Positions 23,691-64,000 are shown, numbered from the stretch's first letter. The stretch is DNA of 64,000 bases from Gammaproteobacteria bacterium (GCA_965206195.1 CBDBIZ010000006.1:68563-132562), one strand, 5' to 3'. The notes: generated from the letters alone by a model not told the origin. Translations and numbers: made by a program.

Positions 23691-26600
23691 AACATTTTTA
23701 TTATTAAAATCTCAACTATTTTGAGGTTGGGGGGGGGGGGGAATGAAGAGAACAGACTTTCCGAATAAAAGGGTAAAAACTTTTTATTATCAGCATTGTA
23801 TATATATGCTTTTGTAAAGATAATTTATTTATCTTACACATAGAATAACATGCAGGGAGTAGATTAAATTTATATATATATATATATATATATCTATCTG
23901 CAGTGTACTTGAAGTGAAACTTTCTACTATAAAGGAATACTTCCCAACTCCTTTAATTGCAATAAAGAAGATAGTAATAGTTATTGAATTAAACATTCCT
24001 AATTTTTTATTACAATCATTAAATTGTACGCTTCCCTACAAACCACACTATGTTAAAACACTCAGGCACTCCTAAGTACCTGTGATTTAGTAATAAAACT
24101 CATGATCCTGTACAACAGCAGAAGTCAGAATGTACCGCTCAGCTTGTGGGATTCCATCCTTGGATGGTTTCTAGTTGCTACTGTTGTTTCATAGTGTTCC
24201 TGCCTCTAATGTTGCAGGTTATTCTTCCAGAGTGTGTGCACACTCAGTTACTGCCTGTTGCCTCTTTCTCTCTCCCTCCTCCTATGTCGCATCCTCCTCA
24301 CATTCATCTTATCCTTTCTGAGAATTACCCTTGGACTGTGGCTGGCCTTGGTGTTTTCTGACATGGTGTGGTCTAAATGAGGTGCATGTGGGCAGTATGG
24401 TGTTAAGCAGTTAGTGGTCATGTGTATGTGGGGAAGGAGGGGAGGTCTAACTTCAACCGTTCAAGTGTGAATCATGGATACACAGACAAAGAGACAGACT
24501 ATTCTCACTCTATAATGTAGATAGATATTTTCAGGCAACATACTAATTCTATCTCCTATGTCTTAATCTAAAATGAGAGAGAGCATTTGCAGCAATTACC
24601 GTGTCTGCACAGTAAGAGCATAATAAAATTAGTGGGTGCGATTTTCCATATGACTTGTTTACATTGTTGCACTACCTTATCCACAAATATATGAATATAT
24701 AGAAGCCAATATTGGGCCTTTACGGATTATGTTGGCATAATGTTGGGTAAAGATGGTGTTTCTGAGTTGCTAGAGTAATGCTGGAAAAATAGTCAGACTT
24801 TCCAAAAAATGATGACTTTCAGGAAAAAAAAGGTAGTGTTTTAGGAAGAATAGGTAGATCTTCAGAAAAAGAAATAAAAGAACTTTTAATCATAAATTTG
24901 AGTGAATGATTGTATCACAGTAAGAGATTATCCACACCTTTCATGTCCCACTTGTTAAATTGTGGAATACTTAGTCAGGGTCATATATAGAGTTAATATT
25001 AACTGTTTAAATGTTTCAAGTATTGAATGACTGGGCCCTTTGCTTGTTTTATGTTGTAACACTCACGTTTGTTTGTTATTGAGCATAATTTATAAAATTA
25101 GGTATGTAAAAAAGAAAAATGCATCAAATGGAAAGAAAAAGAGATGACAATAAAAGAAGAGAAAAGTAGGCAAAAATTCGAGCATAACCATTATATAATG
25201 AATGACAATCAAATCTCACCAACTTAAACATTGTTTTTAACTGAGGTACCTGAATACACTCTGCCTTATTATTGATCCTTGTTTAGTCGACATGTCCATA
25301 AAGGAAACACAACTTTTTAGTTACACTCATTGTATGTCGCGTAATTGTGGTCAGATGAAATCAAAGACAAAAGTCATTATTCTTTGATAATTTTTTTATT
25401 TTTTTTACATAATTACGCTTAATTTCACCATATGCAGTAACAGACATGTTAAGATTAGGAGTAAAGTAGTCAAGCCATAATCCCAAGCTCCACATTATTT
25501 TCCCCCAATTGCTTAACTACTTTAGAAAATGAACAACAATAGGGAAATAATTGAGGCATTGTAAATTTACGACTCATATCAACAAAATATACAAAATTAT
25601 ACTAAATGTCAAACACTGTGCAATATACTTAAAATAATGATAGATAGTTACAACATTACCATCTAATCTCGCCAATATTAAACCTTGTCCATATTGCACA
25701 ATAAAACTGTCTTCGCCTGTGTCTGGAACGGATTTCACACGTCCACAATACACCTTCATTCATCCCAACAGGTTCCACTTGATTTCACCTGAAAACTTCA
25801 GTGGGGTAGGCTTCAATCAGCTCAAATCTATTTTACATTACTGTGGCTTTATCGTGGATCTGAGCTATTAGGAATTTAGTCAATAATGGCTCACTCCCCA
25901 CTCTGTATCCGGCATTAGTGCTTTAACATTGCAGAAAGAGAAAAAAAAGAATAATTATATTCCAAATCTACAGTACTTAGTGGAAGTTGTATATCATTTT
26001 CTATGAACCTGTCATATATTCTTACTTGTAATGTTCAAACCACGAAACAGAACCTCTAGTAATAGTGAATACTTTGAGCTGTCATAGCAAATTGTTAGAC
26101 AAGTCTTCTCTTCAAAATGAAGAAAGTATTCCAGTGAAACGTATTTTTTTTATTTTAATTTTTTTTTCATTATTTTATTTATTTATTTTTTGTTTTTGTT
26201 TTTTTCAACTATTAGGTTTGTTTAAATAGCAATTTGGTTAACTAGACTAAATACTGTATCATTGCTACAAATTCTGTTTCCTATTGAAATATCTCCAGCA
26301 AAGGGTAAGTTGCATTTCTGAAGACTAAACCTTAATTTGAACCAAAGGTTGAATACTGCATGGATGTGAAGAGCTGCTTCAGTTGGGGATAAAATATTCA
26401 GACATATAAAGGAAATGTCTCTTCTTTCTCTTATTACTCCATTTAAACAATCCCTTCCTTTTGGATTTGGCCTCCTTTCAATGGAATTTCACTCCTTCTC
26501 AATCCTACTGCTAACAGTTTCATTTAAGGTCATAATTTTGATATGGCTAAATATCTTATTAAACGTTTTTAGCTATGAGCATACTCAGAGGGAAATTATT

Positions 26601-29215
26601 TCTAAGCTGTTAAGTAATTTTCAACCCGCCAATTTTGGTTACTTTCCCAATTTAGGCTACCACGTGTCCATTAAGAAACCGGTTCTCTTTTTTTCTCATC
26701 AAGTTGGAGTGAAGCCTTGAAAAGTTTTTAATTATTCAGTACCAACTTCACTTTGCGGCTTATTTATAATAAACTGTATAACTATTACAGAAATACACAG
26801 AAGGTGAATGACACCAGAGAAGGGTCAATAGAAGAGAAATGTACAAATGCTTTGAAGAATCCTCCTTGGACATTTCTGAAGAGTACAACGGTAAGTACTG
26901 AGATTAAGGTAACCTATATTACTGTAATTATCAAGATTCTTCAATTACTCCAGCGGGATAAATACTGATGTATGAGGTTTAAATTATTACTGCAGATTAG
27001 AAAACAAAAGAAAGTTACCGATATGAAAATAAAGTCCAGAAAATAATAACAGCTTCAAAAATATCTAACTTCAACAAAAAAATCTGGTCAGAATTCAGTC
27101 GTAATGATACAGAGCTTGTGGGACCCAGTTTTAAAAGGCAAAGTGTTACTTCTGTTTTTTTTAAATTTTTTTATTAATGTGTGCCAGTAACTTTTTTTCT
27201 TAGGTGATAGGTTACTTTATATTACTAAGTTTGGTAAAGTTAAGTGCAAAACTGATTTCCAACCCTCAAACAACAAGAAGGTTAATGCTCTAAAAGAAGG
27301 AGGGGTGTTGAATAAATAATAATAATTGCCTGTTGCTATGCCTACAATTCTGGAATATCATTATCACTTTGAAACATTAAAATAAAATATAGTACCACTT
27401 AAGTGTGAAATGATTATCAGTATAGAAGAAATCATTATCACCTTAAAGAAATTGTGATTTTCATAGGTGCAGGGTAAATATTGAATTGGCTAATTGCAAT
27501 CCCAGTTTAAAATTAATTTCCTTGAAGGAAACCAAAAAAAGATATCAACAAACAAACGCTGACATGTTTCCTCATAGTTGGAGATGCCTGTTGGGAGGTG
27601 GGGTGGGTGAAGGTGGAGGAACGCTAGTCTGGCTGGCCACACCTTTTAAAACATTATCCAGAGGGTGTGGCTTCTGTGGCATACCATATCTGTCCTACTG
27701 CAATACATTTGACAGTATCATAGTTGGTTGCTTTGCCAAATTTATGCATGCAACAATTTGATTGAGTTGCACACCCATCAAGCATATAATACAAATGCTA
27801 TTTTAAATTAAAAAAAAAAGAAAAAAGAAAGTATAAAAAAAGGTGGCACATGCAATACGAATGAAGTACTGTTATCCATGATTCACAGCCAAGTGAACCA
27901 AATTTGTATTTGGAAGACACCAGACCCTTCTGAACAAATTTTAGAAGATATGTTTCACTTGGCTGGGAAAAAAAAAGATCTTGCAGGTGTTCAATAAAAA
28001 TGTAATTCAGTTCAATCAATAAAGATGGATGGAGTAATACTCTCTATATTATTATTTGTGTTTAATCCCTTCATGTTCACTGGCCTGCATAAGTTTTAGA
28101 AAAACGTTTTGAAGCGACTGTTTAAAAAATAAACATTCAAATTTCATTCAGTTCCCTATGTCTTCCTGTCTCTGTATAAGATATTAGGGATCAATGAAAA
28201 GATTGAATTAAAAGTAGAAAAGCGAAAATAATTTTTGCGGGAACCAAGAAGAGGAAATATTGAATTAGGTAGAAGTGGACTATGATGAATTGATCCAACG
28301 TGGAATAAGGGATTAATTTTTGGGTAGTAGGTAAGAATTCAGCTCTAAATCTAAACTTGATCTAACAATTAGTTTAGCGGTAGTGCTTGGTAAAAACAGA
28401 CAAACAATGAACTACAGCTCTAGCTGGTTAGTAGTAGTAGCTGGCTATAATATCCAAAGATGAAGTCAGCTATAAAGGTGAACTTCAATAAAATATATAT
28501 TGTGATATTTTAATTATGTGTCATTTTGAGAATAATACAGCAACCCAAATATTTAACCACATTCAATAATGGTCTCGTAAGCGTAACCATATATCTTGAA
28601 ATTTAATGGTGGAGGTAAAGCATCATGCATGAGAGATGATTTCAATAATCAGTCTGAACCAAAGTTATAAATGGCAGCCCGGCAGTACTGACACTGTTTA
28701 CTTACTTCCTACAGAGTAAGAAATGAACCTGCTATTAAAAAGACAAAACACAAACATTTCGATAATTAGTTAAAAGGAAGTGTTATACCATCCTGTTCTG
28801 TCACCACATTAATTACAAGCAATTAAGAATGCATGTATTATCTCTCTCACTCGTTATTCCTGTGCGTGTGTCTGTTAGTGTGTGTGTGGTTGTGTTCGTC
28901 AGTGGTTCAGTTGGTGGATAGACAGGTGCATGCATATATGAGCGAACTCCTACAAGAGTAAAACTCTGAAGGCCACTAGATTTTTTATGGAGCACATTGG
29001 GATCCATGGGAGTGGAGGTGTCATTGCAATCTGTTTATCAAAATTGGGGTCATTGGCATGATGTGTGTTTTTTAGGTTTCAAATTTCCTGGGGGTGGTGA
29101 TGTATGTGTGAGGCGGAGGGGGAAGGAAATACATGAGTAATGAGCAAATACAAACAAATATATTTATGTGAACACACTCTACCTGAAGTCAGTAACAATG
29201 TGCCCAAAAACCATT

Positions 29216-29257
<42 letters not shown>

Positions 29258-29608
29258 GGCCAAACTGTATGTCCTTCCTGCAGACAGCAGTTTGACCCAA
29301 GCTCACAGAAGGTGGACCTGTCTATCAGTAGGAAGTCACATACCGAGTCTAGAGCTAGGTTCCTTTGGTATGCAAACCAGGCCAATATTTATTTTTTTCA
29401 TTACACAACATCAGGAAGAAAAAGAGAGAAATATAAACCAAATTTCTTATATTCAACTAGTGATATAGAATAATTAGCAAAGATTTGGTATAGAAATCAG
29501 AACTATCAATCAACACTCACATACTCACACATTATATGTCCCGATTTTCCATAAATTATGTTTGGGTTGTGATATGTGCAATTATATTTTATATTTTTCT
29601 TTGTAAAG

Positions 29609-29824
29609 GTACCCAGCAGTTGGCCACACAAAATGTTTCATCTCTTTTGGGGTTTGCTGAGGGACAGCAAACTTCTATTATGGACCAATGGCTATATCAG
29701 GACGCCCAGGGCATCACTCGGGGCCCTTTCAGCTCTATTGATATGATGGCATGGTATGGAGCAGGGTATTTCACTATGGATGTGAAGGTGCAAAGATACT
29801 GTGACCAGATTATGCTCCCACTAG
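29609..29824 (+). CDS. GYF-domain (GIGYF-like) gene, left-arm copy, GYF exon
   Basis: It contains ..SIMDQWLYQDAQGITRGPFSSIDMMAWYGAGYFTMDVKVQRYCDQIMLPLG. This matches the GIGYF GYF domain (WxYxDxxGxxxGPFxxxxMxxWxxxGYF...V.R....F.PLG). The donor is G|GTAAAT in phase 1. Confidence 0.8.
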
Positions 29825-30729
29825 GTAAATGGTGACTATTTAATGCAGTTGCTTGTGCTCTAGTGACAGTAGATATGATAGGATGATTAGTGGGAAGGGA
29901 TGGAAAAGTCAGCTACCTTTGGATAAAAAAATCGCTCAGGTGTATTTAATGCTTGTTGAGTATTCTTTCCCTAGCTTGAACAGTTTTGATTGATTTCGTT
30001 TCATTTTAGTAAGGAATGATAGTGCAAAGATATTATGAAACACGGCATGCTATCAAATCCTATGTGACCACAATGAAGAGCTACCACCTTAGATATTTTT
30101 AATTAAACATTAAAATTGTAGCTAATTAAAATTTGTTCAGTCTTTGTCTGTTCAATTTAATGGTCTATATTCTTTATGAGATAAATATTTGGGATTACAG
30201 AAGTAGGGGGAAGAGTTCTGCAATATTTGCTAGTAGTGACTTACACAAAACAGGTGGAAAATTTTGCATTAAACTTGTTAGCCAAACTACACCCAAGGGA
30301 GGATAATAACACTTTTCCTGTCAGTTGGAGACTGCATTTCAAATTTGAGCCAGTTGTTCTATCTGAGCAAGATATTTTCCTCTCCATGTGACTGGGAGAG
30401 TGTTGTTATCCTGCTCAAGGTCTGGCTAACTGTGTGCTTTGTGTGTTTAATTGAATGTGGCTCCACTCTATTGCTGTACTGGACCAATCTCTCTGTCTTA
30501 AAGGTCACATAGAGATAACATGCTAAATTTCAACCAAATCGGTTTTACAAAGTAAAAACTACTTGGTGTTAATATCAATGGTCAAACCACACCCATAACA
30601 ACACCCATTAGAGGGTAATAATAATTTTATGATCGCATGTAGATGATATGCCATATTTTCCAATAGGTGTGACCAGTTATTTGTTGGTATGATGAGCAAT
30701 TCATCATTTTGTCTTTCCTGTTTGCATAG

Positions 30730-30839
30730 GTGTTGTGGTGTACATCTGGGGGTGTCTCCCTTTCACCTCTGTCAGACCCTCACCTCCTCCCATCCAACCT
30801 TCCAACATCTTCTGGAAAGATGTTTTCCGCAATCCTCAG
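30730..30839 (+). CDS. GYF-domain gene, left-arm copy, exon B
   Basis: Its phase fits the exon before it. VVVYIWGCLPFTSVRPSPPPIQ.. parallels the remembered GIGYF2 segment IMKMWGRVPFSPGPAPPP directly after the GYF domain. The donor is CAG|GTGAGG. Confidence 0.7.
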
Positions 30840-31346
30840 GTGAGGAATCATTGATTCCAGTGATGAAATTGATACATGTTTCCAAAGTAAAGAACTTCAT
30901 GTTCGATGCAGAGTTGTAATAGCTACCCTTAGTTTATGGGCAGTTCACTTTCAGACACCATATTGTCTTCAGTTTCGCTAAAGGCAACGGCTCCCACCAA
31001 CTGCCCAAAAATACATAGTCTTTATAGTGCCACTATCCACTCACAATGTAAAATGAACAAACTAATCTGTTTCATGTACAGCCTCATTGTACCAATCTAA
31101 TAGCACCATAGGTGCATGTATATTACATCTCTATATGATATGTGGCCATGAATGTAATGTATGTTCATGGATTTCATCCATTCTCATAGTGTACAAGTTA
31201 ATATAAGGCCTGCTCATATAACACACATTCATTTAATACATGTCAATATAGTAATTTAATTTTGTACATGACTACATAATCTATGACACATTTATGTTGT
31301 CCTGTTTGTTCGTTATGAAACAACAAAAATGCTGCACTTTCAAAAG

Positions 31347-31506
31347 CAGATGCAATCTTCTGTTGCTGCTGTGGAAAGCATCGCTACGCTAGGAGACACA
31401 TACCAGATGAATTTTCCACGTGCTGGACAGATTCATCCATTAGAATTGTCATCATCGTGGGACCCAACAGGAATATGGAGCTTGCCCACGACAACCGAGG
31501 CAAAAG
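31347..31506 (+). CDS. GYF-domain gene, left-arm copy, exon C
   Basis: The frame is open (QMQSSVAAVESIATLGDTYQMNFPRAGQIHPLELSSSWDPTGIWSLPTTTEAK). It follows an AAAAG acceptor, and starting at 31350 is also possible. The donor is G|GTAGGT, and the phases fit both neighbours. Confidence 0.6.
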
Positions 31507-31593
31507 GTAGGTTTATTTTGTGCGGGCATTGGAGAGAGTAGAGCTACTGTTACTATTCATTCTTGTTGTTCATGCTGTTATTGCCATTTTCAG

Positions 31594-31810
31594 AGGAGCC
31601 GGTTTTCCAACAATGGCCGGTTATACCCACAGCTGATTCTGCATGGGTTCCTATTGCCACATCTTCTTCTGTGGACATGGACACCCAGAACATTCAAGCC
31701 CTTGTGGAGCAGGAGAGAGAGAAGGCAAACAGGCTTTCCATTGAGAGGGAAAGAAAGAAGCAGAGACAAGCTACAGAGAGGAAAATAGAAGTGGACAATG
31801 GTGTGGCTAA
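31594..31810 (+). CDS. GYF-domain gene, left-arm copy, exon D (charged E/R/K segment)
   Basis: It reads EEPVFQQWPVIPTADSAWVPIATSSSVDMDTQNIQALVEQEREKANRLSIERERKKQRQATERKIEVDNGVA. It has a TTTTCAG acceptor and an AA|GTAAGT donor. The phases fit both neighbours. Confidence 0.65.
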
Positions 31811-32528
31811 GTAAGTGAGGAAATTAAGAAAGGGGAGGCTTTCGTGTTGTTTATTTTAGCTATTTCACATCAAGCCAGATCTCTTGACCTCAGTGGCCAA
31901 CATGTACATACAATGTCTTAAAACTTCCACTGATCAAGCCAATTCTGAATGGCAAATTAGTCCGACTACATGGCAGGTCATACAACCCCTACTTTGCACC
32001 AACACTACGGCTTAACTTAGTATTGATCAAAATCAACTAATTCGGTGAAATATCTATTTGTGTATGTTTGTGCATGTGCATGTGTGTGACTTAAGCAGAC
32101 ATGCCATTTCTTCTTGCATGAATTGTAAATAGTACAATTCGTTCGACCGAGTTAATGAAAACAGTTTTTAGGTTGTTAAATTTGTAACATTTCCTCCTAA
32201 CTAGCATATTTCTAATTGTGATGAACTCCTATTAATATTCTAATTTACTATATTCACAATGCTTCAATTCATGTAACAAGTTGAAAAAAATTCTTGTTCC
32301 CAAAATATCTTTCATTTCCTTTTATTTTATAGCAAATATTTGATTATATTTATTACTGATTTACTTTAGTTAGTTCCTCGATAATCACCAATATGCATGA
32401 TTTTTGTGGGTTGACTTGAATATTTTGGCATGTTATGAAATTTTATATGAAGTCGTTTTGTGTGTTTTGGTTATAAATTCTCCAAATATAACTCAAGTTG
32501 TTCTCTGTCCCACTTCTCCCCCTTTTAG

Positions 32529-33291
32529 TGTCAAGCAACGTGTAAGCCACAGACACTCTAACGGTCACCATGACAGTGTAGATGCAGCAGCAATGCTATC
32601 AAGCCTCTCCTCAGAAACCTGTGTCGAGGGTGAGATTGTGAGCAAACCGTACTCTCTCAAGTTGGATGAGAAGTTGACAAATGGTGAGCTCTCAACTCCA
32701 TTTCCACAGAAAAACGGTTTCCTGTCATGTCGTTCTCCTGCTATGCCTACCAATGGCCAGGACAAAGGGAACCCCACACTGTCCATTTCTGCAAAGCAAT
32801 TTTATCCATTTTCAAAGAGCAGGAAGCAATTGATGTCCAATGTAAAGGAGACCATTCATTTAAAAAATATGGAGAATGAAGCAGTGAGCCGACCAACGGA
32901 ATACATAGAAAGTGAAGTCAATGCAAGGAGGCTGGATTTTGAGCGTAATGCCAAATATATGGCTTCCCTTCCAAGTGATGACACTGAACATGCTGCATCT
33001 CCAGCTAACAGAGCTGTGAAAAAGTGTGCTGAATATTTCAATGAGTGTGTGGAGAATTCCTTCGCTGCTTCATATGCACCAGATCCCAGGAATAGTCTGC
33101 CAAGCTTTCACCACACTGGTCTTATGCCTGTCTCTACCTCTCATCCTGCACACCAACAGGCTTCTGGTACTGAGCTTTGTTTGATGCAAAAGTGTGGCTC
33201 TGAGCATTCTCTGGCAGTGGGACAAACCCACACTAACGCCTACACACCGAGACAGATGGACACACACAATGATACTCACACACAAGGATGA
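32529..33291 (+). CDS. GYF-domain gene, left-arm copy, large exon E, with its 3' end and donor removed by a 174-bp deletion
   Basis: It follows a CCTTTTAG acceptor and is in frame with exon D. The frame is long and open (VKQRVSHRHSNGHHDS...SLAVGQ). Homology to the right-arm exon stops at 33224, after which the frame runs into former intron sequence to TGA at 33289-33291. Confidence 0.6.
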
Positions 33292-36454: not shown

Positions 36455-36481
36455 TAGGGCTAGGGCTAGGGCTAGGGCTAA
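36455..36481 (+). repeat. (CTAGGG)n, ~4.5 units
   Basis: Read directly. Confidence 0.9.
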
Positions 36482-42207: not shown

Positions 42208-42221
42208 GTGAGGGCAGTGAT

Positions 42222-52980: not shown

Positions 52981-53294
52981 ATATAGAAAAATCTGAAAAT
53001 GGTTATATCTCTAGCAGGAAAACTTTTGTAGGTACAGATCTGAAACTATGTATGCATGTATGACTTCACTCACAGGTTATTATGGGTAAGGTCCTACCTG
53101 GTCACTTTCCATTGGTGTGTGAGGTGAAGATGTGCCATCAAAGGGGAACTTCAGAATAAAGATTGAATATAAGGAGTTAAATGCACGAACCCATTTTAAA
53201 ATAAATTTTGCTTTGTAAGTATGTATGCATGTTTGTATGTATGTATGTGTCTAAGTATCAGAGCCTAATACTTGGACCACAAAGGCCTAACTTT

Positions 53295-55080: not shown

Positions 55081-55810
55081 CTTTGAAGCATCGAGCCATG
55101 AGAACAAGTTGTCCTGTCCCACTGCCAGAGAATGCTCAGAGCCACACTTTTGCATCAAACAAAGCTCAGTACCAGAAGCCTGTTGGTGTGCAGGATGAGA
55201 GGTAGAGGCAGGCATAAGACCAGTGTGGTGAAAGCTTGGCAGACTATTCCTGGGATCTGGTGCATATGAAGCAGCGAAGGAATTCTCCACACACTCATTG
55301 AAATATTCAGCACACTTTTTCACAGCTCTGTTAGCTGGAGATGCAGCATGTTCAGTGTCATCACTTGGAAGGGAAGCCATATATTTGGCATTACGCTCAA
55401 AATCCAGCCTCCTTGCATTGACTTCACTTTCTATGTATTCCGTTGGTCGGCTCACTGCTTTATTCTCCATATTTTTGAAATGAATGGTCTCCTTTACATT
55501 GGACCTCAATTGCTTCCTGCTGTTTGAAAATGGATAAAATTGCTTCGCAGAAATGGACAGTGTGGGGTTCCCTTTGTCCTGGCCATTGGTAGGCATAGCA
55601 GGAGAACGACATGACAGGAAACCGTTTTTCTGTGGAAATGGAGTTGAGAGCTCACCATTTGTCAACTTCTCATCCAACTTGAGAGAATACGGTTTGCTCA
55701 CAATCTCACCCTCGACACAGGTTTCTGAGGAGAGGCTTGATAGCATTGCTGCTGCATCTACACTGTCATGGTGACCGTTAGAGTGTCTGTGGCTTACACG
55801 TTGCTTGACA
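55081..55810 (-). CDS. GYF-domain gene, right-arm copy, large exon E with an intact 3' end
   Basis: The exon is 730 nt, made up of 1 nt plus 243 codons. It ends ..SLAVGQDNLFSWLDASK at a consensus AAG|GTGAGT donor in phase 0. It differs from the left copy by 5 amino-acid changes and at least 2 silent changes. Confidence 0.65.
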
Positions 55811-56528
55811 CTAAAAGGGGGAGAAGTGGGACAGAGAACAACTTGAATTATATTTGGAGAATTTATAACCAAAACACACAAAACGACTTCATATAAAATT
55901 TCATAACATGCCTAAATATTCAAGTCAACCCACAAAAATCATGCATATTGGTGATTATCGAGGAACTAACTAAAGTAAATCAGTAATAAATATAATCAAA
56001 TATTTGCTATAAAATAAAAGGAAATGAAAGATATTTTGGGAACAAGAATTTTTTTCAACTTGTTACATGAATTGAAGCATTGTGAATATAGTAAATTAGA
56101 ATATTAATAGGAGTTCATCACAATTAGAAATATGCTAGTTAGGAGGAAATGTTACAAATTTAACAACCTAAAAACTGTTTTCATTAACTCGGTCGAACGA
56201 ATTGTACTATTTACAATTCATGCAAGAAGAAATGGCATGTCTGCTTAAGTCACACACATGCACATGCACAAACATACACAAATAGATATTTCACCGAATT
56301 AGTTGATTTTGATCAATACTAAGTTAAGCCGTAGTGTTGGTGCAAAGTAGGGGTTGTATGACCTGCCATGTAGTCGGACTAATTTGCCATTCAGAATTGG
56401 CTTGATCAGTGGAAGTTTTAAGACATTGTATGTACATGTTGGCCACTGAGGTCAAGAGATCTGGCTTGATGTGAAATAGCTAAAATAAACAACACGAAAG
56501 CCTCCCCTTTCTTAATTTCCTCACTTAC

Positions 56529-56745
56529 TTAGCCACACCATTGTCCACTTCTATTTTCCTCTCTGTAGCTTGTCTCTGCTTCTTTCTTTCCCTCTCAATG
56601 GAAAGCCTGTTTGCCTTCTCTCTCTCCTGCTCCACAAGGGCTTGAATGTTCTGGGTGTCCATGTCCACAGAAGAAGATGTGGCAATAGGAACCCATGCAG
56701 AATCAGCTGTGGGTATAACCGGCCATTGTTGGAAAACCGGCTCCT
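56529..56745 (-). CDS. GYF-domain gene, right-arm copy, exon D
   Basis: It is the mirror of 31594-31810. The ORF 56525-56776 (minus strand) is identical, and the donor was confirmed by reading (ttagc at 56529-56533). Confidence 0.65.
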
Positions 56746-56832
56746 CTGAAAATGGCAATAACAGCATGAACAACAAGAATGAATAGTAACAGTAGCTCTA
56801 CTCTCTCCAATGCCCGCACAAAATAAACCTAC

Positions 56833-56992
56833 CTTTTGCCTCGGTTGTCGTGGGCAAGCTCCATATTCCTGTTGGGTCCCACGATGATGACAATTCTAAT
56901 GGATGAATCTGTCCAGCACGTGGAAAATTCATCTGGTATGTGTCTCCTAGCGTAGCGATGCTTTCCACAGCAGCAACAGAAGATTGCATCTG
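56833..56992 (-). CDS. GYF-domain gene, right-arm copy, exon C
   Basis: It is the mirror of 31347-31506. The ORF 56798-57010 (minus strand) is identical to 31329-31541. Confidence 0.6.
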
Positions 56993-57499
56993 CTTTTGAA
57001 AGTGCAGCATTTTTGTTGTTTCATAACGAACAAACAGGACAACATAAATGTGTCATAGATTATGTAGTCATGTACAAAATTAAATTACTATATTGACATG
57101 TATTAAATGAATGTGTGTTATATGAGCAGGCCTTATATTAACTTGTACACTATGAGAATGGATGAAATCCATGAACATACATTACATTCATGGCCACATA
57201 TCATATAGAGATGTAATATACATGCACCTATGGTGCTATTAGATTGGTACAATGAGGCTGTACATGAAACAGATTAGTTTGTTCATTTTACATTGTGAGT
57301 GGATAGTGGCACTATAAAGACTATGTATTTTTGGGCAGTTGGTGGGAGCCGTTGCCTTTAGCGAAACTGAAGACAATATGGTGTCTGAAAGTGAACTGCC
57401 CATAAACTAAGGGTAGCTATTACAACTCTGCATCGAACATGAAGTTCTTTACTTTGGAAACATGTATCAATTTCATCACTGGAATCAATGATTCCTCAC

Positions 57500-57609
57500 C
57501 TGAGGATTGCGGAAAACATCTTTCCAGAAGATGTTGGAAGGTTGGATGGGAGGAGGTGAGGGTCTGACAGAGGTGAAAGGGAGACACCCCCAGATGTACA
57601 CCACAACAC
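57500..57609 (-). CDS. GYF-domain gene, right-arm copy, exon B
   Basis: It is the mirror of 30730-30839. The overlapping ORF-track entries are identical. Confidence 0.7.
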
Positions 57610-58514
57610 CTATGCAAACAGGAAAGACAAAATGATGAATTGCTCATCATACCAACAAATAACTGGTCACACCTATTGGAAAATATGGCATATCATCTAC
57701 ATGCGATCATAAAATTATTATTACCCTCTAATGGGTGTTGTTATGGGTGTGGTTTGACCATTGATATTAACACCAAGTAGTTTTTACTTTGTAAAACCGA
57801 TTTGGTTGAAATTTAGCATGTTATCTCTATGTGACCTTTAAGACAGAGAGATTGGTCCAGTACAGCAATAGAGTGGAGCCACATTCAATTAAACACACAA
57901 AGCACACAGTTAGCCAGACCTTGAGCAGGATAACAACACTCTCCCAGTCACATGGAGAGGAAAATATCTTGCTCAGATAGAACAACTGGCTCAAATTTGA
58001 AATGCAGTCTCCAACTGACAGGAAAAGTGTTATTATCCTCCCTTGGGTGTAGTTTGGCTAACAAGTTTAATGCAAAATTTTCCACCTGTTTTGTGTAAGT
58101 CACTACTAGCAAATATTGCAGAACTCTTCCCCCTACTTCTGTAATCCCAAATATTTATCTCATAAAGAATATAGACCATTAAATTGAACAGACAAAGACT
58201 GAACAAATTTTAATTAGCTACAATTTTAATGTTTAATTAAAAATATCTAAGGTGGTAGCTCTTCATTGTGGTCACATAGGATTTGATAGCATGCCGTGTT
58301 TCATAATATCTTTGCACTATCATTCCTTACTAAAATGAAACGAAATCAATCAAAACTGTTCAAGCTAGGGAAAGAATACTCAACAAGCATTAAATACACC
58401 TGAGCGATTTTTTTATCCAAAGGTAGCTGACTTTTCCATCCCTTCCCACTAATCATCCTATCATATCTACTGTCACTAGAGCACAAGCAACTGCATTAAA
58501 TAGTCACCATTTAC

Positions 58515-58730
58515 CTAGTGGGAGCATAATCTGGTCACAGTATCTTTGCACCTTCACATCCATAGTGAAATACCCTGCTCCATACCATGCCATCATATCA
58601 ATAGAGCTGAAAGGGCCCCGAGTGATGCCCTGGGCGTCCTGATATAGCCATTGGTCCATAATAGAAGTTTGCTGTCCCTCAGCAAACCCCAAAAGAGATG
58701 AAACATTTTGTGTGGCCAACTGCTGGGTAC
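58515..58730 (-). CDS. GYF-domain gene, right-arm copy, GYF exon
   Basis: It is the mirror of 29609-29824 (coordinates sum to 88339). The protein is identical in the ORF track (58504-58776, minus strand). Confidence 0.8.
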
Positions 58731-59080
58731 CTTTACAAAGAAAAATATAAAATATAATTGCACATATCACAACCAAACATAATTTATGGAAAATCGGGAC
58801 ATATAATGTGTGAGTATGTGAGTGTTGATTGATAGTTCTGATTTCTATACCAAATCTTTGCTAATTATTCTATATCACTAGTTGAATATAAGAAATTTGG
58901 TTTATATTTCTCTCTTTTTCTTCCTGATGTTGTGTAATGAAAAAAATAAATATTGGCCTGGTTTGCATACCAAAGGAACCTAGCTCTAGACTCGGTATGT
59001 GACTTCCTACTGATAGACAGGTCCACCTTCTGTGAGCTTGGGTCAAACTGCTGTCTGCAGGAAGGACATACAGTTTGGCC

Positions 59081-59122
<42 letters not shown>

Positions 59123-62100
59123 AATGGTTTTTGGGCACATTGTTACTGACTTCAGGTAGAGTGTGTTCACATAAATATATTTGTTTGTATTTGCTCATTA
59201 CTCATGTATTTCCTTCCCCCTCCGCCTCACACATACATCACCACCCCCAGGAAATTTGAAACCTAAAAAACACACATCATGCCAATGACCCCAATTTTGA
59301 TAAACAGATTGCAATGACACCTCCACTCCCATGGATCCCAATGTGCTCCATAAAAAATCTAGTGGCCTTCAGAGTTTTACTCTTGTAGGAGTTCGCTCAT
59401 ATATGCATGCACCTGTCTATCCACCAACTGAACCACTGACGAACACAACCACACACACACTAACAGACACACGCACAGGAATAACGAGTGAGAGAGATAA
59501 TACATGCATTCTTAATTGCTTGTAATTAATGTGGTGACAGAACAGGATGGTATAACACTTCCTTTTAACTAATTATCGAAATGTTTGTGTTTTGTCTTTT
59601 TAATAGCAGGTTCATTTCTTACTCTGTAGGAAGTAAGTAAACAGTGTCAGTACTGCCGGGCTGCCATTTATAACTTTGGTTCAGACTGATTATTGAAATC
59701 ATCTCTCATGCATGATGCTTTACCTCCACCATTAAATTTCAAGATATATGGTTACGCTTACGAGACCATTATTGAATGTGGTTAAATATTTGGGTTGCTG
59801 TATTATTCTCAAAATGACACATAATTAAAATATCACAATATATATTTTATTGAAGTTCACCTTTATAGCTGACTTCATCTTTGGATATTATAGCCAGCTA
59901 CTACTACTAACCAGCTAGAGCTGTAGTTCATTGTTTGTCTGTTTTTACCAAGCACTACCGCTAAACTAATTGTTAGATCAAGTTTAGATTTAGAGCTGAA
60001 TTCTTACCTACTACCCAAAAATTAATCCCTTATTCCACGTTGGATCAATTCATCATAGTCCACTTCTACCTAATTCAATATTTCCTCTTCTTGGTTCCCG
60101 CAAAAATTATTTTCGCTTTTCTACTTTTAATTCAATCTTTTCATTGATCCCTAATATCTTATACAGAGACAGGAAGACATAGGGAACTGAATGAAATTTG
60201 AATGTTTATTTTTTAAACAGTCGCTTCAAAACGTTTTTCTAAAACTTATGCAGGCCAGTGAACATGAAGGGATTAAACACAAATAATAATATAGAGAGTA
60301 TTACTCCATCCATCTTTATTGATTGAACTGAATTACATTTTTATTGAACACCTGCAAGATCTTTTTTTTTCCCAGCCAAGTGAAACATATCTTCTAAAAT
60401 TTGTTCAGAAGGGTCTGGTGTCTTCCAAATACAAATTTGGTTCACTTGGCTGTGAATCATGGATAACAGTACTTCATTCGTATTGCATGTGCCACCTTTT
60501 TTTATACTTTCTTTTTTCTTTTTTTTTTTATTTAAAATAGCATTTGTATTATATGCTTGATGGGTGTGCAACTCAATCAAATTGTTGCATGCATAAATTT
60601 GGCAAAGCAACCAACTATGATACTGTCAAATGTATTGCAGTAGGACAGATATGGTATGCCACAGAAGCCACACCCTCTGGATAATGTTTTAAAAGGTGTG
60701 GCCAGCCAGACTAGCGTTCCTCCACCTTCACCCACCCCACCTCCCAACAGGCATCTCCAACTATGAGGAAACATGTCAGTGTTTGTTTGTTGATATCTTT
60801 TTTTGGTTTCCTTCAAGGAAATTAATTTTAAACTGGCATTGCAAATTAGCCAATTCAATATTTACCCTGCACCTATGAAAATCACAATTTCTTTAAGGTG
60901 ATAATGATTTCTTCTATACTGATAATCATTTCACACTTAAGTGGTACTATATTTTATTTTAATGTTTCAAAGTGATAATGATATTCCAGAATTGTAGGCA
61001 TAGCAACAGGCAATTATTATTATTTATTCAACACCCCTCCTTCTTTTAGAGCATTAACCTTCTTGTTGTTTGAGGGTTGGAAATCAGTTTTGCACTTAAC
61101 TTTACCAAACTTAGTAATATAAAGTAACCTATCACCTAAGAAAAAAAGTTACTGGCACACATTAATAAAAAAATTTAAAAAAAAACAGAAGTAACACTTT
61201 GCCTTTTAAAACTGGGTCCCACAAGCTCTGTATCATTACGACTGAATTCTGACCAGATTTTTTTGTTGAAGTTAGATATTTTTGAAGCTGTTATTATTTT
61301 CTGGACTTTATTTTCATATCAGTAACTTTCTTTTGTTTTCTAATCTGCAGTAATAATTTAAACCTCATACATCAGTATTTATCCCGCTGGAGTAATTGAA
61401 GAATCTTGATAATTACAGTAATATAGGTTACCTTAATCTCAGTACTTACCGTTGTACTCTTCAGAAATGTCCAAGGAGGATTCTTCCAAGCATTTGTACA
61501 TTTCTCTTCTATTGACCCTTCTCTGGTGTCATTCACCTTCTGTGTATTTCTGTAATAGTTATACAGTTTATTATAAATAAGCCGCAAAGTGAAGTTGGTA
61601 CTGAATAATTAAAAACTTTTCAAGGCTTCACTCCAACTTGATGAGAAAAAAGAGAACCGGTTTCTTAATGGACACGTGGTAGCCTAAATTGGGAAAGTAA
61701 CCAAAATTGGCGGGTTGAAAATTACTTAACAGCTTAGAAATAATTTCCCTCTGAGTATGCTCATAGCTAAAAACGTTTAATAAGATATTTAGCCATATCA
61801 AAATTATGACCTTAAATGAAACTGTTAGCAGTAGGATTGAGAAGGAGTGAAATTCCATTGAAAGGAGGCCAAATCCAAAAGGAAGGGATTGTTTAAATGG
61901 AGTAATAAGAGAAAGAAGAGACATTTCCTTTATATGTCTGAATATTTTATCCCCAACTGAAGCAGCTCTTCACATCCATGCAGTATTCAACCTTTGGTTC
62001 AAATTAAGGTTTAGTCTTCAGAAATGCAACTTACCCTTTGCTGGAGATATTTCAATAGGAAACAGAATTTGTAGCAATGATACAGTATTTAGTCTAGTTA

Positions 62101-64000
62101 ACCAAATTGCTATTTAAACAAACCTAATAGTTGAAAAAAACAAAAACAAAAAATAAATAAATAAAATAATGAAAAAAAAATTAAAATAAAAAAAATACGT
62201 TTCACTGGAATACTTTCTTCATTTTGAAGAGAAGACTTGTCTAACAATTTGCTATGACAGCTCAAAGTATTCACTATTACTAGAGGTTCTGTTTCGTGGT
62301 TTGAACATTACAAGTAAGAATATATGACAGGTTCATAGAAAATGATATACAACTTCCACTAAGTACTGTAGATTTGGAATATAATTATTCTTTTTTTTCT
62401 CTTTCTGCAATGTTAAAGCACTAATGGCGGATACAGAGTGGGGAGTGAGCCATTATTGACTAAATTCCTAATAGCTCAGATCCACGATAAAGCCACAGTA
62501 ATGTAAAATAGATTTGAGCTGATTGAAGCCTACCCCACTGAAGTTTTCAGGTGAAATCAAGTGGAACCTGTTGGGATGAATGAAGGTGTATTGTGGACGT
62601 GTGAAATCCGTTCCAGACACAGGCGAAGACAGTTTTATTGTGCAATATGGACAAGGTTTAATATTGGCGAGATTAGATGGTAATGTTGTAACTATCTATC
62701 ATTATTTTAAGTATATTGCACAGTGTTTGACATTTAGTATAATTTTGTATATTTTGTTGATATGAGTCGTAAATTTACAATGCCTCAATTATTTCCCTAT
62801 TGTTGTTCATTTTCTAAAGTAGTTAAGCAATTGGGGGAAAATAATGTGGAGCTTGGGATTATGGCTTGACTACTTTACTCCTAATCTTAACATGTCTGTT
62901 ACTGCATATGGTGAAATTAAGCGTAATTATGTAAAAAAATTAAAAAAATTATCAAAGAATAATGACTTTTGTCTTTGATTTCATCTGACCACAATTACGC
63001 GACATACAATGAGTGTAACTAAAAAGTTGTGTTTCCTTTATAGACATGTCGACTAAACAAGGATCAATAATAAGGCAGAGTGTATTCAGGTACCTCAGTT
63101 AAAAACAATGTTAAAGTTGGTGAGATTTGATTGTCATTCATTATATAACGGTTATGCTCGAATTTTTGCCTACTTTTCTCTTCTTTTATTGTCATCTCTT
63201 TTTCTTTCCATTTGATGCATTTTTCTTTTTTACATACCTAATTTTATAAATTATGCTCAATAACAAACAAACGTTGAGTGTTACAACATAAAACAAGCAA
63301 AGGGCCCAGTCATTCAATACTTGAAACATTTAAACAGTTAATATTAACTCTATATATGACCCTGACTAAGTATTCCACAATTTAACAAGTGGGACATGAA
63401 AGGTGTGGATAATCTCTTACTGTGATACAATCATTCACTCAAATTTATGATTAAAAGTTCTTTTATTTCTTTTTCTGAAGATCTACCTATTCTTCCTAAA
63501 ACACTACCTTTTTTTTCCTGAAAGTCATCATTTTTTGGAAAGTCTGACTATTTTTCCAGCATTACTCTAGCAACTCAGAAACACCATCTTTACCCAACAT
63601 TATGCCAACATAATCCGTAAAGGCCCAATATTGGCTTCTATATATTCATATATTTGTGGATAAGGTAGTGCAACAATGTAAACAAGTCATATGGAAAATC
63701 GCACCCACTAATTTTATTATGCTCTTACTGTGCAGACACGGTAATTGCTGCAAATGCTCTCTCTCATTTTAGATTAAGACATAGGAGATAGAATTAGTAT
63801 GTTGCCTGAAAATATCTATCTACATTATAGAGTGAGAATAGTCTGTCTCTTTGTCTGTGTATCCATGATTCACACTTGAACGGTTGAAGTTAGACCTCCC
63901 CTCCTTCCCCACATACACATGCCCACTAACTGCTTAACACCATACTGCCCACATGCACCTCATTTAGACCACACCATGTCAGAAAACACCAAGGCCAGCC

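What the first reader, a model, noticed from the sequence alone, without database searches (positions are those of the whole stretch)
24340..64000. Very large near-identical inverted duplication (palindrome) with arms of at least 15-18 kb and a 6.85-kb spacer, running off the window end
Every ORF between 24146 and 39045 reappears on the opposite strand between 46392 and 64000. Examples are 25574-25759(-) = 62580-62765(+), 31563-31814(+) = 56525-56776(-) and 38731-39045(+) = 46392-46706(-). Paired coordinates sum to near-constant values: about 88339 in the outer part, 88165 in the middle and 85433-85437 in the inner part. The steps between these values correspond to two arm-specific indels. Reading the junctions, homology ends at 39293 on the left (..gtatttcatgaa|attacac) and begins at 46142 on the right (..ggttgtagg|ttcatgaaatac). 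Base 64000 pairs with 24340, so the outer ends are not visible and the structure may be larger. Each arm carries a spliced GYF-domain gene segment, an F-box/LRR ORF, an RT fragment and a dynein pseudogene as mirror copies. A known parallel is the set of palindromes with over 99% arm identity on primate X and Y chromosomes, which are kept homogeneous by arm-to-arm gene conversion. The alternative is that the assembler joined two divergent haplotypes head to head. The asymmetric spacer and the arm-specific deletions argue against a simple fold-back read artefact. They do not argue against a haplotig misjoin.
Basis: partly seen in the sequence, partly recalled or inferred. Interest (0 to 1): 0.8.

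Follow-up and report, generated by a model that had tools for sequence, protein, structure and literature searches.

The report
Large multi-copy palindrome kept by conversion
The reported giant inverted duplication is real and about twice as long as reported: it is one copy of a repeated ~80-kb module in what is probably a sponge genome, its two arms are kept alike by gene conversion as in mammalian sex-chromosome palindromes, and its centre is eroded by deletions.

Summary
Observation confirmed. Window 24340-39293 is the reverse complement of 46142-64000 (14.95 kb aligned, about 0.33% substitutions). The spacer is 6,848 bp, and two segments (2,742 bp and 174 bp) occur only in the right arm.

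It is not an assembly misjoin. Other contigs of one ENA long-read assembly are 1-2% diverged from the window, and two of them carry both inner junctions base for base.

The repeated arm is larger than reported. Sibling contigs put its outer end at window 6362, so an arm is about 33-36 kb. Window 1-6361 is a second spacer with a T-box gene. The module spacer S, arm, spacer X, inverted arm recurs on at least 8 contigs.

Arms of one palindrome differ by 0.17-0.34%, against 0.62-1.18% between palindromes. They are sister sequences at 99-100% bootstrap although the junctions are shared. Alleles present on both arms are enriched for AT-to-GC changes (p=0.011). Together these indicate GC-biased arm-to-arm gene conversion.

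Sibling copies carry different 11-12 kb deletions at the centre, with 1-4 bp microhomology. Origin by fold-back inverted duplication is inferred, not shown.

The host is probably a demosponge. This is a new member of a known kind.

The parts
1..6361 (+). Outer spacer S. In sibling contigs it is about 6.52 kb, because it starts about 160 bp before window base 1. It lies between an inverted arm and the forward arm.
   Evidence: In ctg22803 (L017/L016/L023) and ctg21864 (L024) the order is inverted arm (window 9639->6362), 160 bp, window 1->6361, forward arm. S has no similarity to spacer X or to the arm.
1778..4488 (+). T-box transcription factor gene inside spacer S. Exons are at about 1778-1957, 3799-4056 and 4240-4488.
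   Evidence: Pfam T-box E=1e-27, covering profile positions 2-26 and 114-182. The best named relative is TbxA2 of the demosponge Halichondria bowerbanki, 48% identity.
6362..39293 (+). Left arm (repeat unit U), 32.9 kb here. Only 24340-39293 has its partner inside the window.
   Evidence: The inner end comes from the self-BLAST. The outer end is where the two inverted copies on ctg22803 stop being homologous, right after a (TA)n run, at TATAATGACAC = window 6362. In ctg22908 both arms are homologous for at least 19.1 kb, out to window about 13058.
11765..12058 (+). Homeobox gene, first exon, carried in the arm.
   Evidence: Pfam Homeodomain E=4.5e-9. The identical 97-aa product is called at 5 places on 4 sibling contigs.
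20252..22063 (+). Chromodomain ORF (20252-20818) followed by an AHD-domain ORF (21698-22063), both in the arm.
   Evidence: Pfam Chromo E=8e-13 and AHD E=1.7e-10. The same pair follows both arm copies in sibling contigs.
29494..29832 (+). GYF-domain exon. Its mirror copy is at 58507-58845 (-).
   Evidence: Pfam GYF E=3.6e-14. The mirror position follows from coordinate sum 88339.
32404..33291 (+). Large exon-like ORF, left-arm copy. Its 3' end and GT splice donor were removed by the 174-bp deletion. The intact mirror copy is 54913-55881 (-).
   Evidence: The right-arm sequence reads ..DASK|GTGAGT. The cluster of 19 variants of this ORF led to the sibling contigs.
33222..33224 (.). Scar of the 174-bp deletion specific to the left arm (3-bp microhomology).
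   Evidence: The same deletion allele is present in the left arm of ctg22141.
35261..35268 (.). Scar of the 2,742-bp deletion specific to the left arm. It truncates the LRR-like ORF (35250-35585, -).
   Evidence: All sibling arms examined retain the 2.74-kb segment.
36848..37485 (+). Fragments derived from cytoplasmic dynein-1 heavy chain (stalk CC1 exons) in the left arm. The mirror copy is 47952-48589 (-).
   Evidence: Coordinates are. The closest solved sequence to the combined dynein query is cytoplasmic dynein 1 heavy chain, E about 1e-34. The arm CC1 fragment on its own matches a dynein chain only weakly (query 21-75, E about 5e-5).
38664..38871 (.). 36/106-bp tandem repeat near the inner arm end. 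The mirror copy is 46566-46773. The right breakpoint of the deletion shared by ctg24110 and ctg22908 lies in it (46724).
39286..39293 (.). Last 8 bp of the left arm, TTCATGAA, which is self-complementary. The same 8-mer starts the right arm at 46142-46149.
   Evidence: Its significance is unexplained; the post hoc chance is about 1/256.
39294..46141 (+). Inner spacer X, 6,848 bp, single copy within the palindrome. It holds a dynein exon (40393-40683, matching human DYNC1H1 residues 3466-3551). It also holds an older copy (about 75-83% identity) of the arm's dynein exons and 20-bp repeats (41724-42358), a CT-rich tract (42757-42996) and an RT-like ORF (45849-46162, -).
   Evidence: The whole spacer is reproduced in L004 and L005.
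46142..64000 (-). Right arm (inverted unit U'), cut off by the window end. From sibling copies it is predicted to run about 18 kb further.
   Evidence: Sibling right arms continue through the AHD, chromodomain and homeobox genes.
49848..50999 (+). LRR-like ORF intact only in the right arm. It has an in-frame stop at 50469-50471, and sibling copies are likewise called as two ORFs.
   Evidence: LRR_NXF1-5, E=3.6e-4, below the cut-off. Gene calls of 194/195 aa plus 145 aa appear in the sibling loci.
50166..52907 (.). 2,742-bp segment present only in the right arm.
54942..55114 (.). 174-bp segment present only in the right arm.

Best explanation
The window holds most of one genuine chromosomal palindrome. 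The left arm is 6362-39293, the single-copy spacer X is 39294-46141, and the inverted right arm runs from 46142 past the window end. Window 1-6361 is a second spacer S that carries a T-box gene. The module S, arm, X, inverted arm (about 80 kb) is present several times in a genome that is probably a demosponge's.

Shown: the two arms of a palindrome recombine with each other, and non-reciprocal, GC-biased gene conversion keeps them 99.5-99.8% alike. Copies in different palindromes have drifted 0.6-1.2% apart.

Shown: the centre is the unstable part. In this copy the left arm has lost 2,742 bp and 174 bp. Sibling copies have lost 11-12 kb spanning the spacer and one inner arm. All these joins show 1-4 bp of microhomology, which points to end-joining or template switching.

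Inferred: the palindrome arose once. A broken or stalled DNA end at the right edge of X folded back and copied the left arm in reverse (fold-back inverted duplication with a kb-scale single-copy loop). The whole module was later duplicated.
For: Structure: self-BLAST and base-level alignment.

The structure is real. Both inner junctions and the whole spacer recur base for base in L004 (ctg22141) and L005 (ctg21897). These carry their own SNPs and are 98.2-98.6% identical to the window.

Larger arms. Both arm copies on ctg22908, ctg24110 and ctg23965 continue through the AHD and chromodomain genes. The outer boundary at 6362 comes from ctg22803 and ctg21864.

Multi-copy. A 35-aa arm ORF is found at 10 places (the cap) on 7 contigs. 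Two same-orientation copies lie 85 kb apart on ctg23965. The large-exon ORF cluster has 19 variants. Short repeat-rich contigs are labelled 197-588x, against 115-137x for long contigs.

Conversion.
- Arm distances are 0.23%, 0.17% and 0.34% within palindromes, against 0.62-1.18% between them.
- Arm pairs are sisters at 100%, 100% and 99% bootstrap.
- Informative sites for the window versus ctg22141 split 15 same-palindrome: 0 same-side: 1 cross.
- The junctions are nevertheless shared. The window, ctg22141 and ctg21897 share the X junctions. ctg24110 and ctg22908 share the 34383|46724 junction.
- Derived alleles on both arms are W>S 19: S>W 21. Derived alleles on a single arm are 9: 36. Fisher p=0.011.
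- The 174-bp deletion is shared by the left arms of the window and ctg22141, while the flanking SNPs group each arm with its own partner.

Centre instability. The parallel in primates is PMC8327919.

Origin. The dynein-derived exons are colinear from the left arm (36.8-37.5 kb) into X (40.4 kb) on one strand, so the left junction looks native and the right one new. Human fold-back duplications have 0.77-70 kb single-copy spacers (PMC3907307).
Against: No reads, depth profile or independent individual could be examined. All sibling contigs come from one metagenome-style assembly (ERZ25069296). An assembler working through near-identical repeats can make chimeric paths, and its polishing could partly homogenise arms. 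The odd ctg21897 structure may be such an error.

The window's own contig (182,321 bp) could not be fetched. The outer boundary and the second spacer are therefore inferred from siblings.

I could not decide whether the many copies are paralogues in one genome or haplotypes of several individuals.

Inverted arm pairs that face each other across spacer S are only about 98% identical. Conversion therefore does not act equally on all inverted pairs, and this is unexplained.

SNP relationships and junction types are not fully congruent. ctg23965 is nearest ctg24110 in SNPs but has a different centre.

The fold-back origin cannot be tested without an unduplicated reference. Coding constraint on the arm genes is inconclusive.
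Confidence: 0.78

Rival explanations
1. Assembly artefact. Two haplotypes of a single-copy locus were joined head to head (haplotig misjoin), or chimeric fold-back reads created the inverted junction.
For: Arm divergence (about 0.3%) is in the range of heterozygosity. The window end hides the outer boundary. No read-level data could be checked.
Against: The same right junction (46141|46142), left junction and 6.85-kb spacer occur in two other contigs with their own SNPs. A random misjoin would not recur at the same bases in diverged sequence. Inverted arm pairs with different centres occur on three more contigs. Repeat-rich sibling contigs are labelled with higher coverage, not lower, than long contigs. 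The variant joins have 1-4 bp microhomology rather than long repeats.
Confidence: 0.04
2. Real palindromes, but without gene conversion. Each copy made its own inverted duplication recently, so arms are alike simply because they are young.
For: Arms of each palindrome are sister sequences. Recent independent duplication would also give this pattern.
Against: Independent events would not produce identical junctions to the base in the window, ctg22141 and ctg21897. Nor would they produce the identical 34383|46724 junction in ctg24110 and ctg22908. The 174-bp deletion is shared between left arms of different palindromes. Alleles present on both arms are GC-enriched relative to single-arm alleles. 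Arm divergence in ctg22908 rises from 0.05% at the centre to about 0.65% at 16-19 kb, which a single duplication date does not predict.
Confidence: 0.08
3. The copies are not paralogues but haplotypes of one or two palindromes from several individuals or genotypes pooled in the sample. The 'family' would then be population variation. This variant is compatible with the best explanation.
For: All siblings come from one assembly. Divergence of 0.6-1.2% is typical of marine invertebrate heterozygosity. Some contigs have low labelled coverage (50x).
Against: ctg23965 carries at least two modules on one contig, and ctg22803 and ctg21864 show an inverted arm upstream of S. More than one module per haplotype therefore exists. 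Coverage of repeat-rich contigs is 1.5-4.7 times that of long contigs.
Confidence: 0.3
4. An extrachromosomal or mobile element with long inverted repeats and two unique segments, such as a plastid-like or viral flip-flop genome, or a giant transposon.
For: The layout of two inverted repeats separated by two unique segments of 6.5 and 6.85 kb resembles such genomes.
Against: Modules sit in linear contigs of 310-512 kb next to other sequence. The content is animal genes and gene fragments: T-box, homeobox, chromodomain/AHD, GYF and dynein pieces. No transposase, integrase, capsid or organellar gene was found, and no tRNA or Rfam hit.
Confidence: 0.02

Closest known systems
Large palindromes of mammalian sex chromosomes (human Y P1-P8; 26 human X palindromes; mouse X). 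Sources: PMC8327919, PMC8600007, PMC8981503, PMC3723533.
   Same: The arms are tens of kb long and over 99% identical, with a unique kb-scale spacer. Arm-to-arm gene conversion is seen as arms of one palindrome grouping together despite shared structure. The conversion is GC-biased. Rearrangements and deletions concentrate on the spacer and inner arm. The setting is multi-copy (ampliconic), and there are genes in both arms and spacer.
   Different: The host is probably a sponge, with no known sex chromosome. Arm identity is somewhat lower (99.5-99.8% versus at least 99.9% on the Y). The arm content is transcription-factor and chromatin-reader genes plus pseudogene fragments, not known testis gene families. 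Expression is unknown. Inverted pairs across the second spacer are not homogenised.
Human fold-back inverted duplications with a disomic spacer (Hermetz et al. 2014, PMC3907307), and breakage-fusion-bridge products.
   Same: Inverted copies are separated by a single-copy spacer of a few kb (766-70,466 bp in that study; 6,848 bp here). One junction looks native and the other novel.
   Different: Here the event is old, fixed and further duplicated. No terminal deletion or telomere is in view. The 2-8 bp inverted microhomology that defines the mechanism cannot be read without an unduplicated reference.
ODIRA inverted triplications in yeast and human (PMC4689423, PMC10766183, PMC10766186).
   Same: The units alternate in orientation (inverted arm, S, arm, X, inverted arm). 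Secondary deletions remove one arm next to a palindromic junction.
   Different: ODIRA loops are short interrupted inverted repeats (tens of bp), whereas the spacers here are 6.5-6.9 kb. No replication origin can be identified. More than three copies exist.
Long inverted repeats actively maintained in Caenorhabditis autosomes (Zhao et al. 2007, PMC1803023), and willow sex-chromosome palindromes (PMC7023750).
   Same: These are palindromes outside mammals in which structure is conserved better than sequence, implying ongoing homogenisation.
   Different: The C. elegans repeats as described in that abstract involve homologous gene pairs and their intergenic sequences, not 33-kb multi-gene arms. 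The willow palindromes are sex-linked.

Membership tests
Large near-identical genomic palindrome (mammalian sex-chromosome type) | Two inverted arms of more than about 8-10 kb | tested here: met
   14.95 kb is visible in the window. Sibling contigs show at least 19.1 kb and a boundary-to-boundary length of about 33 kb.
Large near-identical genomic palindrome (mammalian sex-chromosome type) | Arm-to-arm identity of at least 99% | tested here: met
   99.2-99.7% per block, with about 0.33% substitutions overall.
Large near-identical genomic palindrome (mammalian sex-chromosome type) | Unique spacer between the arms | tested here: met
   The spacer is 6,848 bp. It has no copy in the arms except an old segment of about 0.65 kb at about 75-83% identity.
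Large near-identical genomic palindrome (mammalian sex-chromosome type) | Arms homogenised by gene conversion (arms of one palindrome closer to each other than to orthologous or paralogous arms, despite common origin) | tested here: met
   Distances are, bootstrap support, site patterns 15:0:1 and shared junctions. Caveat: these are assembled contigs, not reads.
Large near-identical genomic palindrome (mammalian sex-chromosome type) | GC-biased conversion | tested here: met
   W>S:S>W is 19:21 for alleles on both arms, against 9:36 for alleles on one arm; p=0.011. Polarity was set by majority rule, without a true outgroup.
Large near-identical genomic palindrome (mammalian sex-chromosome type) | Structural change concentrated at the centre of symmetry | tested here: met
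   Deletions of window 34384-46723 and 39086-50428 occur in sibling copies. The left-arm deletions lie 4 kb and 6 kb from the spacer.
Large near-identical genomic palindrome (mammalian sex-chromosome type) | Sex-chromosome location and germline-biased gene families | not testable with these tools
   No chromosome assignment or expression data are available. This feature does not define the structure itself.
Fold-back inverted duplication | Inverted duplication separated from the original by a single-copy spacer | tested here: met
Fold-back inverted duplication | [quoted passage not shown] | not testable with these tools
   No unduplicated copy was found. The two diverged hits to the dynein exon are true dynein genes of other organisms.
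Fold-back inverted duplication | One native and one novel junction | tested here: inconclusive
   The dynein-derived exons are colinear across the left junction, which suggests it is native. This rests on three short fragments.
ODIRA inverted triplication | Three copies with the central one inverted, and junctions at short interrupted inverted repeats (loops of tens of bp) | tested here: not met
   The alternating orientation is seen. However, the loops are 6.5 and 6.85 kb, and more than three copies exist.
ODIRA inverted triplication | Amplicon contains a replication origin | not testable with these tools
   Origins cannot be recognised from sequence in this organism.
Haplotig head-to-head misjoin (artefact) | Junction unique to one assembly path and not supported elsewhere | tested here: not met
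   The junctions are reproduced in L004 and L005 with distinct flanking SNPs.
Haplotig head-to-head misjoin (artefact) | Arm read depth half that of single-copy flanks | not testable with these tools
   Only contig-name coverages of sibling contigs are available. They are higher, not lower, for repeat-rich contigs.

The most novel reading that the evidence does not exclude
This would be the first large, gene-converting, ampliconic palindrome family described in a non-bilaterian animal. It would be a sponge locus in which a lineage-specific T-box gene (in the spacer) and homeobox and chromodomain genes (in the arms) are held in roughly 10-25 arm copies by palindrome-mediated GC-biased conversion. 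It could mark a non-recombining or germline- or sex-related region analogous to mammalian ampliconic regions.
Probability: 0.15. Interest if true: 0.7.

Novelty: new member of a known kind. Interest (0 to 1): 0.45.

Why it matters
Large palindromes kept uniform by gene conversion are best known from mammalian sex chromosomes, where they are thought to protect gene families that cannot recombine normally. The same hallmarks appear here in a probable sponge: high arm identity, GC-biased conversion and centre-focused deletions. This suggests that these dynamics are a general property of long inverted repeats in animal genomes, not a peculiarity of sex chromosomes.

The locus also offers a natural series of structural variants of one palindrome, which could be used to study how palindromes decay.

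Practically, it flags a region that assemblers are likely to fragment or mis-join. It also shows that host contigs inside metagenome assemblies can supply independent copies for validation.

Tried and rejected
1. Fetching the window's own contig (182,321 bp). The exact-protein look-up of the right-arm ORF found no record, so the right arm could not be extended directly. Sibling contigs were used instead.

2. Looking for an unduplicated ancestral copy through the spacer's dynein exon. The only diverged hits (73% and 66% identity) are genuine dynein genes on low-coverage contigs of other organisms or assemblies. The fold-back microhomology test was therefore impossible.

3. Treating the self-complementary TTCATGAA at the arm ends as proof of fold-back priming. 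I rejected this, because in a fold-back product any microhomology becomes part of the arms and need not be self-complementary. It is kept as an unexplained observation.

4. pN/pS across copies for six arm ORFs. There were too few changes to tell constraint from neutrality.

5. Similarity between the two spacers, or between spacer and arm. None was found apart from one old segment of about 0.65 kb.

6. Rfam and tRNA scans gave nothing.

7. Pfam on the remaining arm and spacer ORFs gave nothing, so the 'RT fragment in each arm' is not confirmed.

9. The 2.25-kb insertion at 7031/7032 in sibling copies shows no terminal repeats, only a poly-T end.

10. I checked whether a chromodomain+AHD architecture exists elsewhere. 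The AHD relatives tested carry YEATS, not chromo.


Full report
**Check of the observation.**
A BLASTN of the window against itself shows three colinear inverted blocks. They are 24340-33224 = 64000-55115 (99.72%), 33222-35261 = 54941-52905 (99.2%) and 35268-39293 = 50165-46142 (99.45%).

Base-by-base alignment finds about 49 substitutions and 12 small indels in about 14.95 kb. Two segments exist only in the right arm: 50166-52907 (2,742 bp) and 54942-55114 (174 bp). Both are deletions in the left arm. The first truncates an ORF that is complete on the right. The second removes the end of a large exon together with its GT splice donor. Sibling copies examined at those positions retain the 2,742-bp segment, and most retain the 174-bp segment.

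Pfam confirms a GYF exon and dynein-derived pieces in the arms. It gives only a weak, sub-threshold LRR hit for the 'F-box/LRR' ORF. It finds no reverse transcriptase in the arms.

**Where the sequence comes from.**
The window has 36% G+C and holds animal-type genes:
- a T-box gene (1778-4488),
- a homeobox exon (11765-12058),
- a chromodomain ORF and an AHD ORF (20252-22063),
- a GYF exon,
- fragments most similar to cytoplasmic dynein-1 heavy chain.

The closest named relative of the T-box domain is TbxA2 of the demosponge Halichondria bowerbanki (48% identity). The next hits are vertebrate TBX6/TBX22 at 37-40%. I infer, without proof, that the host is a demosponge.

The window's two large-exon ORFs are on record on a 182,321-bp contig held by NCBI and ENA. 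That contig could not be fetched.

**Independent copies.**
The large-exon ORF belongs to a cluster of 19 variants. Exact-protein look-ups retrieved 25 loci, 24 of them from a single ENA assembly, ERZ25069296. Its contig names have the form ctgN_COVERAGEx_l; the 25th locus (L022) is from ERZ26693861.

The sibling arm copies are 98-99% identical to the window, so they are different molecules and not the same contig.

Two of them reproduce the whole centre of the window's palindrome: ctg22141_588x (loci L003, L004, L006) and ctg21897_302x (L005). The inner left arm, both junctions, the complete spacer and the inner right arm are colinear at 98.2-98.6%. The 110 bp around each junction are identical apart from their own SNPs. 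A haplotig misjoin or a chimeric read cannot recur at the same base in diverged sequences. The average coverages written in the contig names point the same way: they are higher, not lower, for the short repeat-rich contigs (197-588x) than for the long ones (115-137x).

**The structure is larger than reported.**
A 35-aa arm ORF (window 62762-62869) is found at 10 places, the cap, on 7 contigs. On ctg22908, ctg24110 and ctg23965, both copies are followed by the AHD and chromodomain genes, which lie left of 24340 in the window. The window's 'unique' left flank is therefore part of the arm. On ctg22908 the two arms are homologous for at least 19.1 kb, to the limit of what could be fetched.

The homeobox and T-box look-ups show the outer end of the arm. 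On ctg22803 and ctg21864 the order is as follows:
1. an inverted arm, corresponding to window 9639 down to 6362;
2. 160 bp;
3. window 1-6361 in forward orientation;
4. the forward arm from 6362.

Homology between the inverted copies stops right after a (TA)n run, at TATAATGACAC = window 6362.

The arm (unit U) is thus 6362-39293, which is 32.9 kb here and about 35.8 kb without the two deletions. Window 1-6361 is a second spacer, S (6.52 kb in full), which carries the T-box gene. S and X are unrelated to each other.

On ctg23965 two left-arm-type copies lie 85.0 kb apart in the same orientation. This fits a repeated module S-U-X-U'. My attempt to predict the exact spacing left 7-18 kb unaccounted for, so the higher-order arrangement is not settled. 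On ctg15495_50x, S is preceded by unrelated sequence; this may be the edge of the array. The U'|S join has 1 bp of microhomology.

**Evidence for arm-to-arm gene conversion.**
Over the 8.9 kb that corresponds to window 55115-64000, the two arms of a palindrome differ by 0.23% (window), 0.17% (ctg22908) and 0.34% (ctg24110). Arms of different palindromes differ by 0.62-1.18%. In a neighbour-joining tree the arm pairs are sisters with 100%, 100% and 99% bootstrap support, backed by 14, 11 and 6 exclusive shared changes.

For the inner 4 kb, informative sites in the quartet window-left, window-right, ctg22141-left and ctg22141-right split 15 for 'same palindrome', 0 for 'same side' and 1 crosswise.

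These palindromes nevertheless share their junctions. The window, ctg22141 and ctg21897 have the same X junctions. ctg24110 and ctg22908 have the same derived join, 34383|46724. The inverted structure therefore predates the divergence of the copies. Without homogenisation the arms would then have to be at least as different from each other as the copies are.

The 174-bp deletion gives the same message. It is shared by the left arms of the window and ctg22141, while the surrounding SNPs group each arm with its own partner.

Finally, I polarised changes by the majority state among 10-11 copies. Derived alleles present on both arms of one palindrome are W>S 19: S>W 21. Derived alleles on a single arm are 9: 36 (odds ratio 3.6, Fisher p=0.011). 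This is the signature of GC-biased conversion described for primate palindromes (PMC8981503, PMC3723533). It is not what consensus polishing would produce.

In ctg22908, arm divergence rises from 0.05% next to the centre to about 0.65% at 16-19 kb.

Some sites that differ between the window's arms are shared with other copies. This suggests occasional exchange between palindromes as well.

**An unexplained asymmetry.**
The inverted pairs that face each other across spacer S are only about 97.9% identical (0.9-2.3% substitutions per kb). That is no more alike than copies from different palindromes. Homogenisation therefore acts on the X-centred pairs but not visibly on the S-centred ones, although the two spacers are of similar size.

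**Instability of the centre.**
Relative to the window:
- ctg24110 and ctg22908 lack 34384-46723, which is the inner left arm, the spacer and 0.6 kb of the right arm. The join has 4 bp of microhomology and is identical in both contigs.
- ctg23965 lacks 39086-50428, which is the last 0.2 kb of the left arm, the spacer and the inner right arm, with 1 bp of microhomology.
- ctg21897 has two further joins, with 3 and 4 bp of microhomology.
- The window's own 2,742-bp and 174-bp deletions have 2-3 bp of microhomology.

Each sibling structure can be derived from the window type by a single deletion. Such short microhomologies point to end-joining or template switching, not to assembler jumps at long repeats.

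The pattern matches primate X palindromes. There, rearrangements are concentrated around the centre of symmetry, and common deletions span the spacer plus the inner arm (PMC8327919).

**Likely origin (inferred).**
The dynein-derived pieces lie on one strand in protein order. The stalk CC1 exons are at 36848-37485 in the left arm. An exon matching human DYNC1H1 residues 3466-3551 is at 40393-40683 in X. The left junction therefore looks like original, continuous sequence, and the right junction (46141|46142) looks like the new one. The right junction lies next to an RT-like ORF that Pfam does not recognise.

An inverted copy attached at the far side of a kb-scale single-copy loop is what fold-back repair of a broken end produces. 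In 21 sequenced human cases the spacer was 766-70,466 bp, with 2-8 bp of inverted microhomology (PMC3907307).

The microhomology cannot be read here, because no unduplicated copy was found. ODIRA-type inverted triplication gives the same alternating orientation, but it uses loops of tens of bp (PMC4689423). I therefore do not file the structure under ODIRA.

The arms end in the self-complementary 8-mer TTCATGAA. I could not connect this to a mechanism.

**Function.**
There is no evidence that the palindrome does anything beyond duplicating its genes and homogenising them. Counts of coding versus silent changes among copies are too small to show constraint. The LRR-like ORF has an in-frame stop in the window and is called as two ORFs in the sibling copies. 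The left arm of this copy has lost an exon end and part of that ORF. The T-box domain and the homeobox first exon read as open frames.

**Verdict.**
The finding is real and its interpretation is right. The structure is about twice as long as seen in the window and belongs to a multi-copy module. It behaves like the large palindromes of mammalian sex chromosomes: over 99% arm identity, GC-biased arm-to-arm conversion and a fragile centre. It does so in a probable sponge, which makes it a new member of a known kind.

The main limits are these:
- no read-level data could be examined;
- all sibling arm copies come from one assembly;
- I could not tell paralogues from pooled haplotypes;
- the origin mechanism is inferred.

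Noticed in passing
window 20252-22063: A chromodomain ORF is followed 0.9 kb downstream, on the same strand, by an AHD (ANC1 homology domain) ORF. The AHD relatives checked carry a YEATS domain in front, as in AF9/ENL, not a chromodomain. This may be a chimeric reader-domain swap or two unrelated gene pieces.
   Followed up: partly
L023 1-5541 vs 12086-17608; L024 1-5545 vs 12100-17656: Inverted arm copies that face each other across the outer spacer S are only about 97.9% identical. Arms across spacer X are 99.3-99.7% identical. Homogenisation is selective, and I have no explanation.
   Followed up: partly
window 39286-39293 and 46142-46149: Both arms end in the self-complementary 8-mer TTCATGAA. 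The post hoc chance is about 1/256. The simple fold-back model does not predict it.
   Followed up: partly
window 7031/7032; L016 3023-5268, also L017, L020, L023, L024: Five sibling loci on four contigs carry a 2.25-kb insertion that is absent from the window, next to a poly-T run. No terminal repeats were found. It may be a retroposed element or a deletion in the window.
   Followed up: partly
window 14280-14533 and 9189-9264: There is a long (AGTG)n microsatellite (63 units) and its reverse-complement motif (TCAC)n 5 kb away. One sibling locus (L020) stops aligning at this microsatellite, within about 80 bp of its contig end.
   Followed up: no
window 41724-42358 vs 36848-37617: The spacer holds an older direct copy (about 75-83% identity) of the arm's two dynein-derived exons and the adjoining 20-bp tandem repeat. 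A small tandem duplication therefore preceded the palindrome.
   Followed up: partly
window 49848-50999: The LRR-like ORF has an in-frame stop at 50469-50471, and sibling copies are likewise called as two ORFs (194/195 aa plus 145 aa). It is probably a pseudogene that was already broken before the amplification.
   Followed up: partly
window 32426-32878: Eight of the 20 arm differences in the outer block cluster in 450 bp of the large exon, next to a 2.9-kb stretch with none. Several of these alleles are shared with other palindromes. This suggests exchange between copies or an unconverted tract.
   Followed up: partly
L012 (ctg24163_137x, 756 kb); proteins P0002-P0005: Older partial paralogues of the arm exist elsewhere in the same assembly. 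They show 94-97% DNA identity over window 22460-31117, and 77-91% protein identity for the large exon. The region therefore has a longer history of duplication.
   Followed up: no
L015 14083 onward (ctg24110 right arm): The right arm of ctg24110 lacks the equivalent of window 16066-21345 (5.3 kb, including the chromodomain ORF), which its left arm retains. In addition, L011 on ctg23965 lacks window 9927-17454, including the homeobox exon.
   Followed up: no
window 16000-20000: This stretch has a strong positive GC skew (0.19-0.23) and purine-rich low-complexity sequence.
   Followed up: no
L021 (ctg19659_30x) and L022 (ERZ26693861 ctg128524_6x): Apparently genuine dynein heavy-chain genes (MT, AAA_9 and Dynein_heavy hits) from lower-coverage organisms are 66-73% identical to the spacer's dynein exon. 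The window's pieces are much more degenerate and are likely pseudogene relics.
   Followed up: partly
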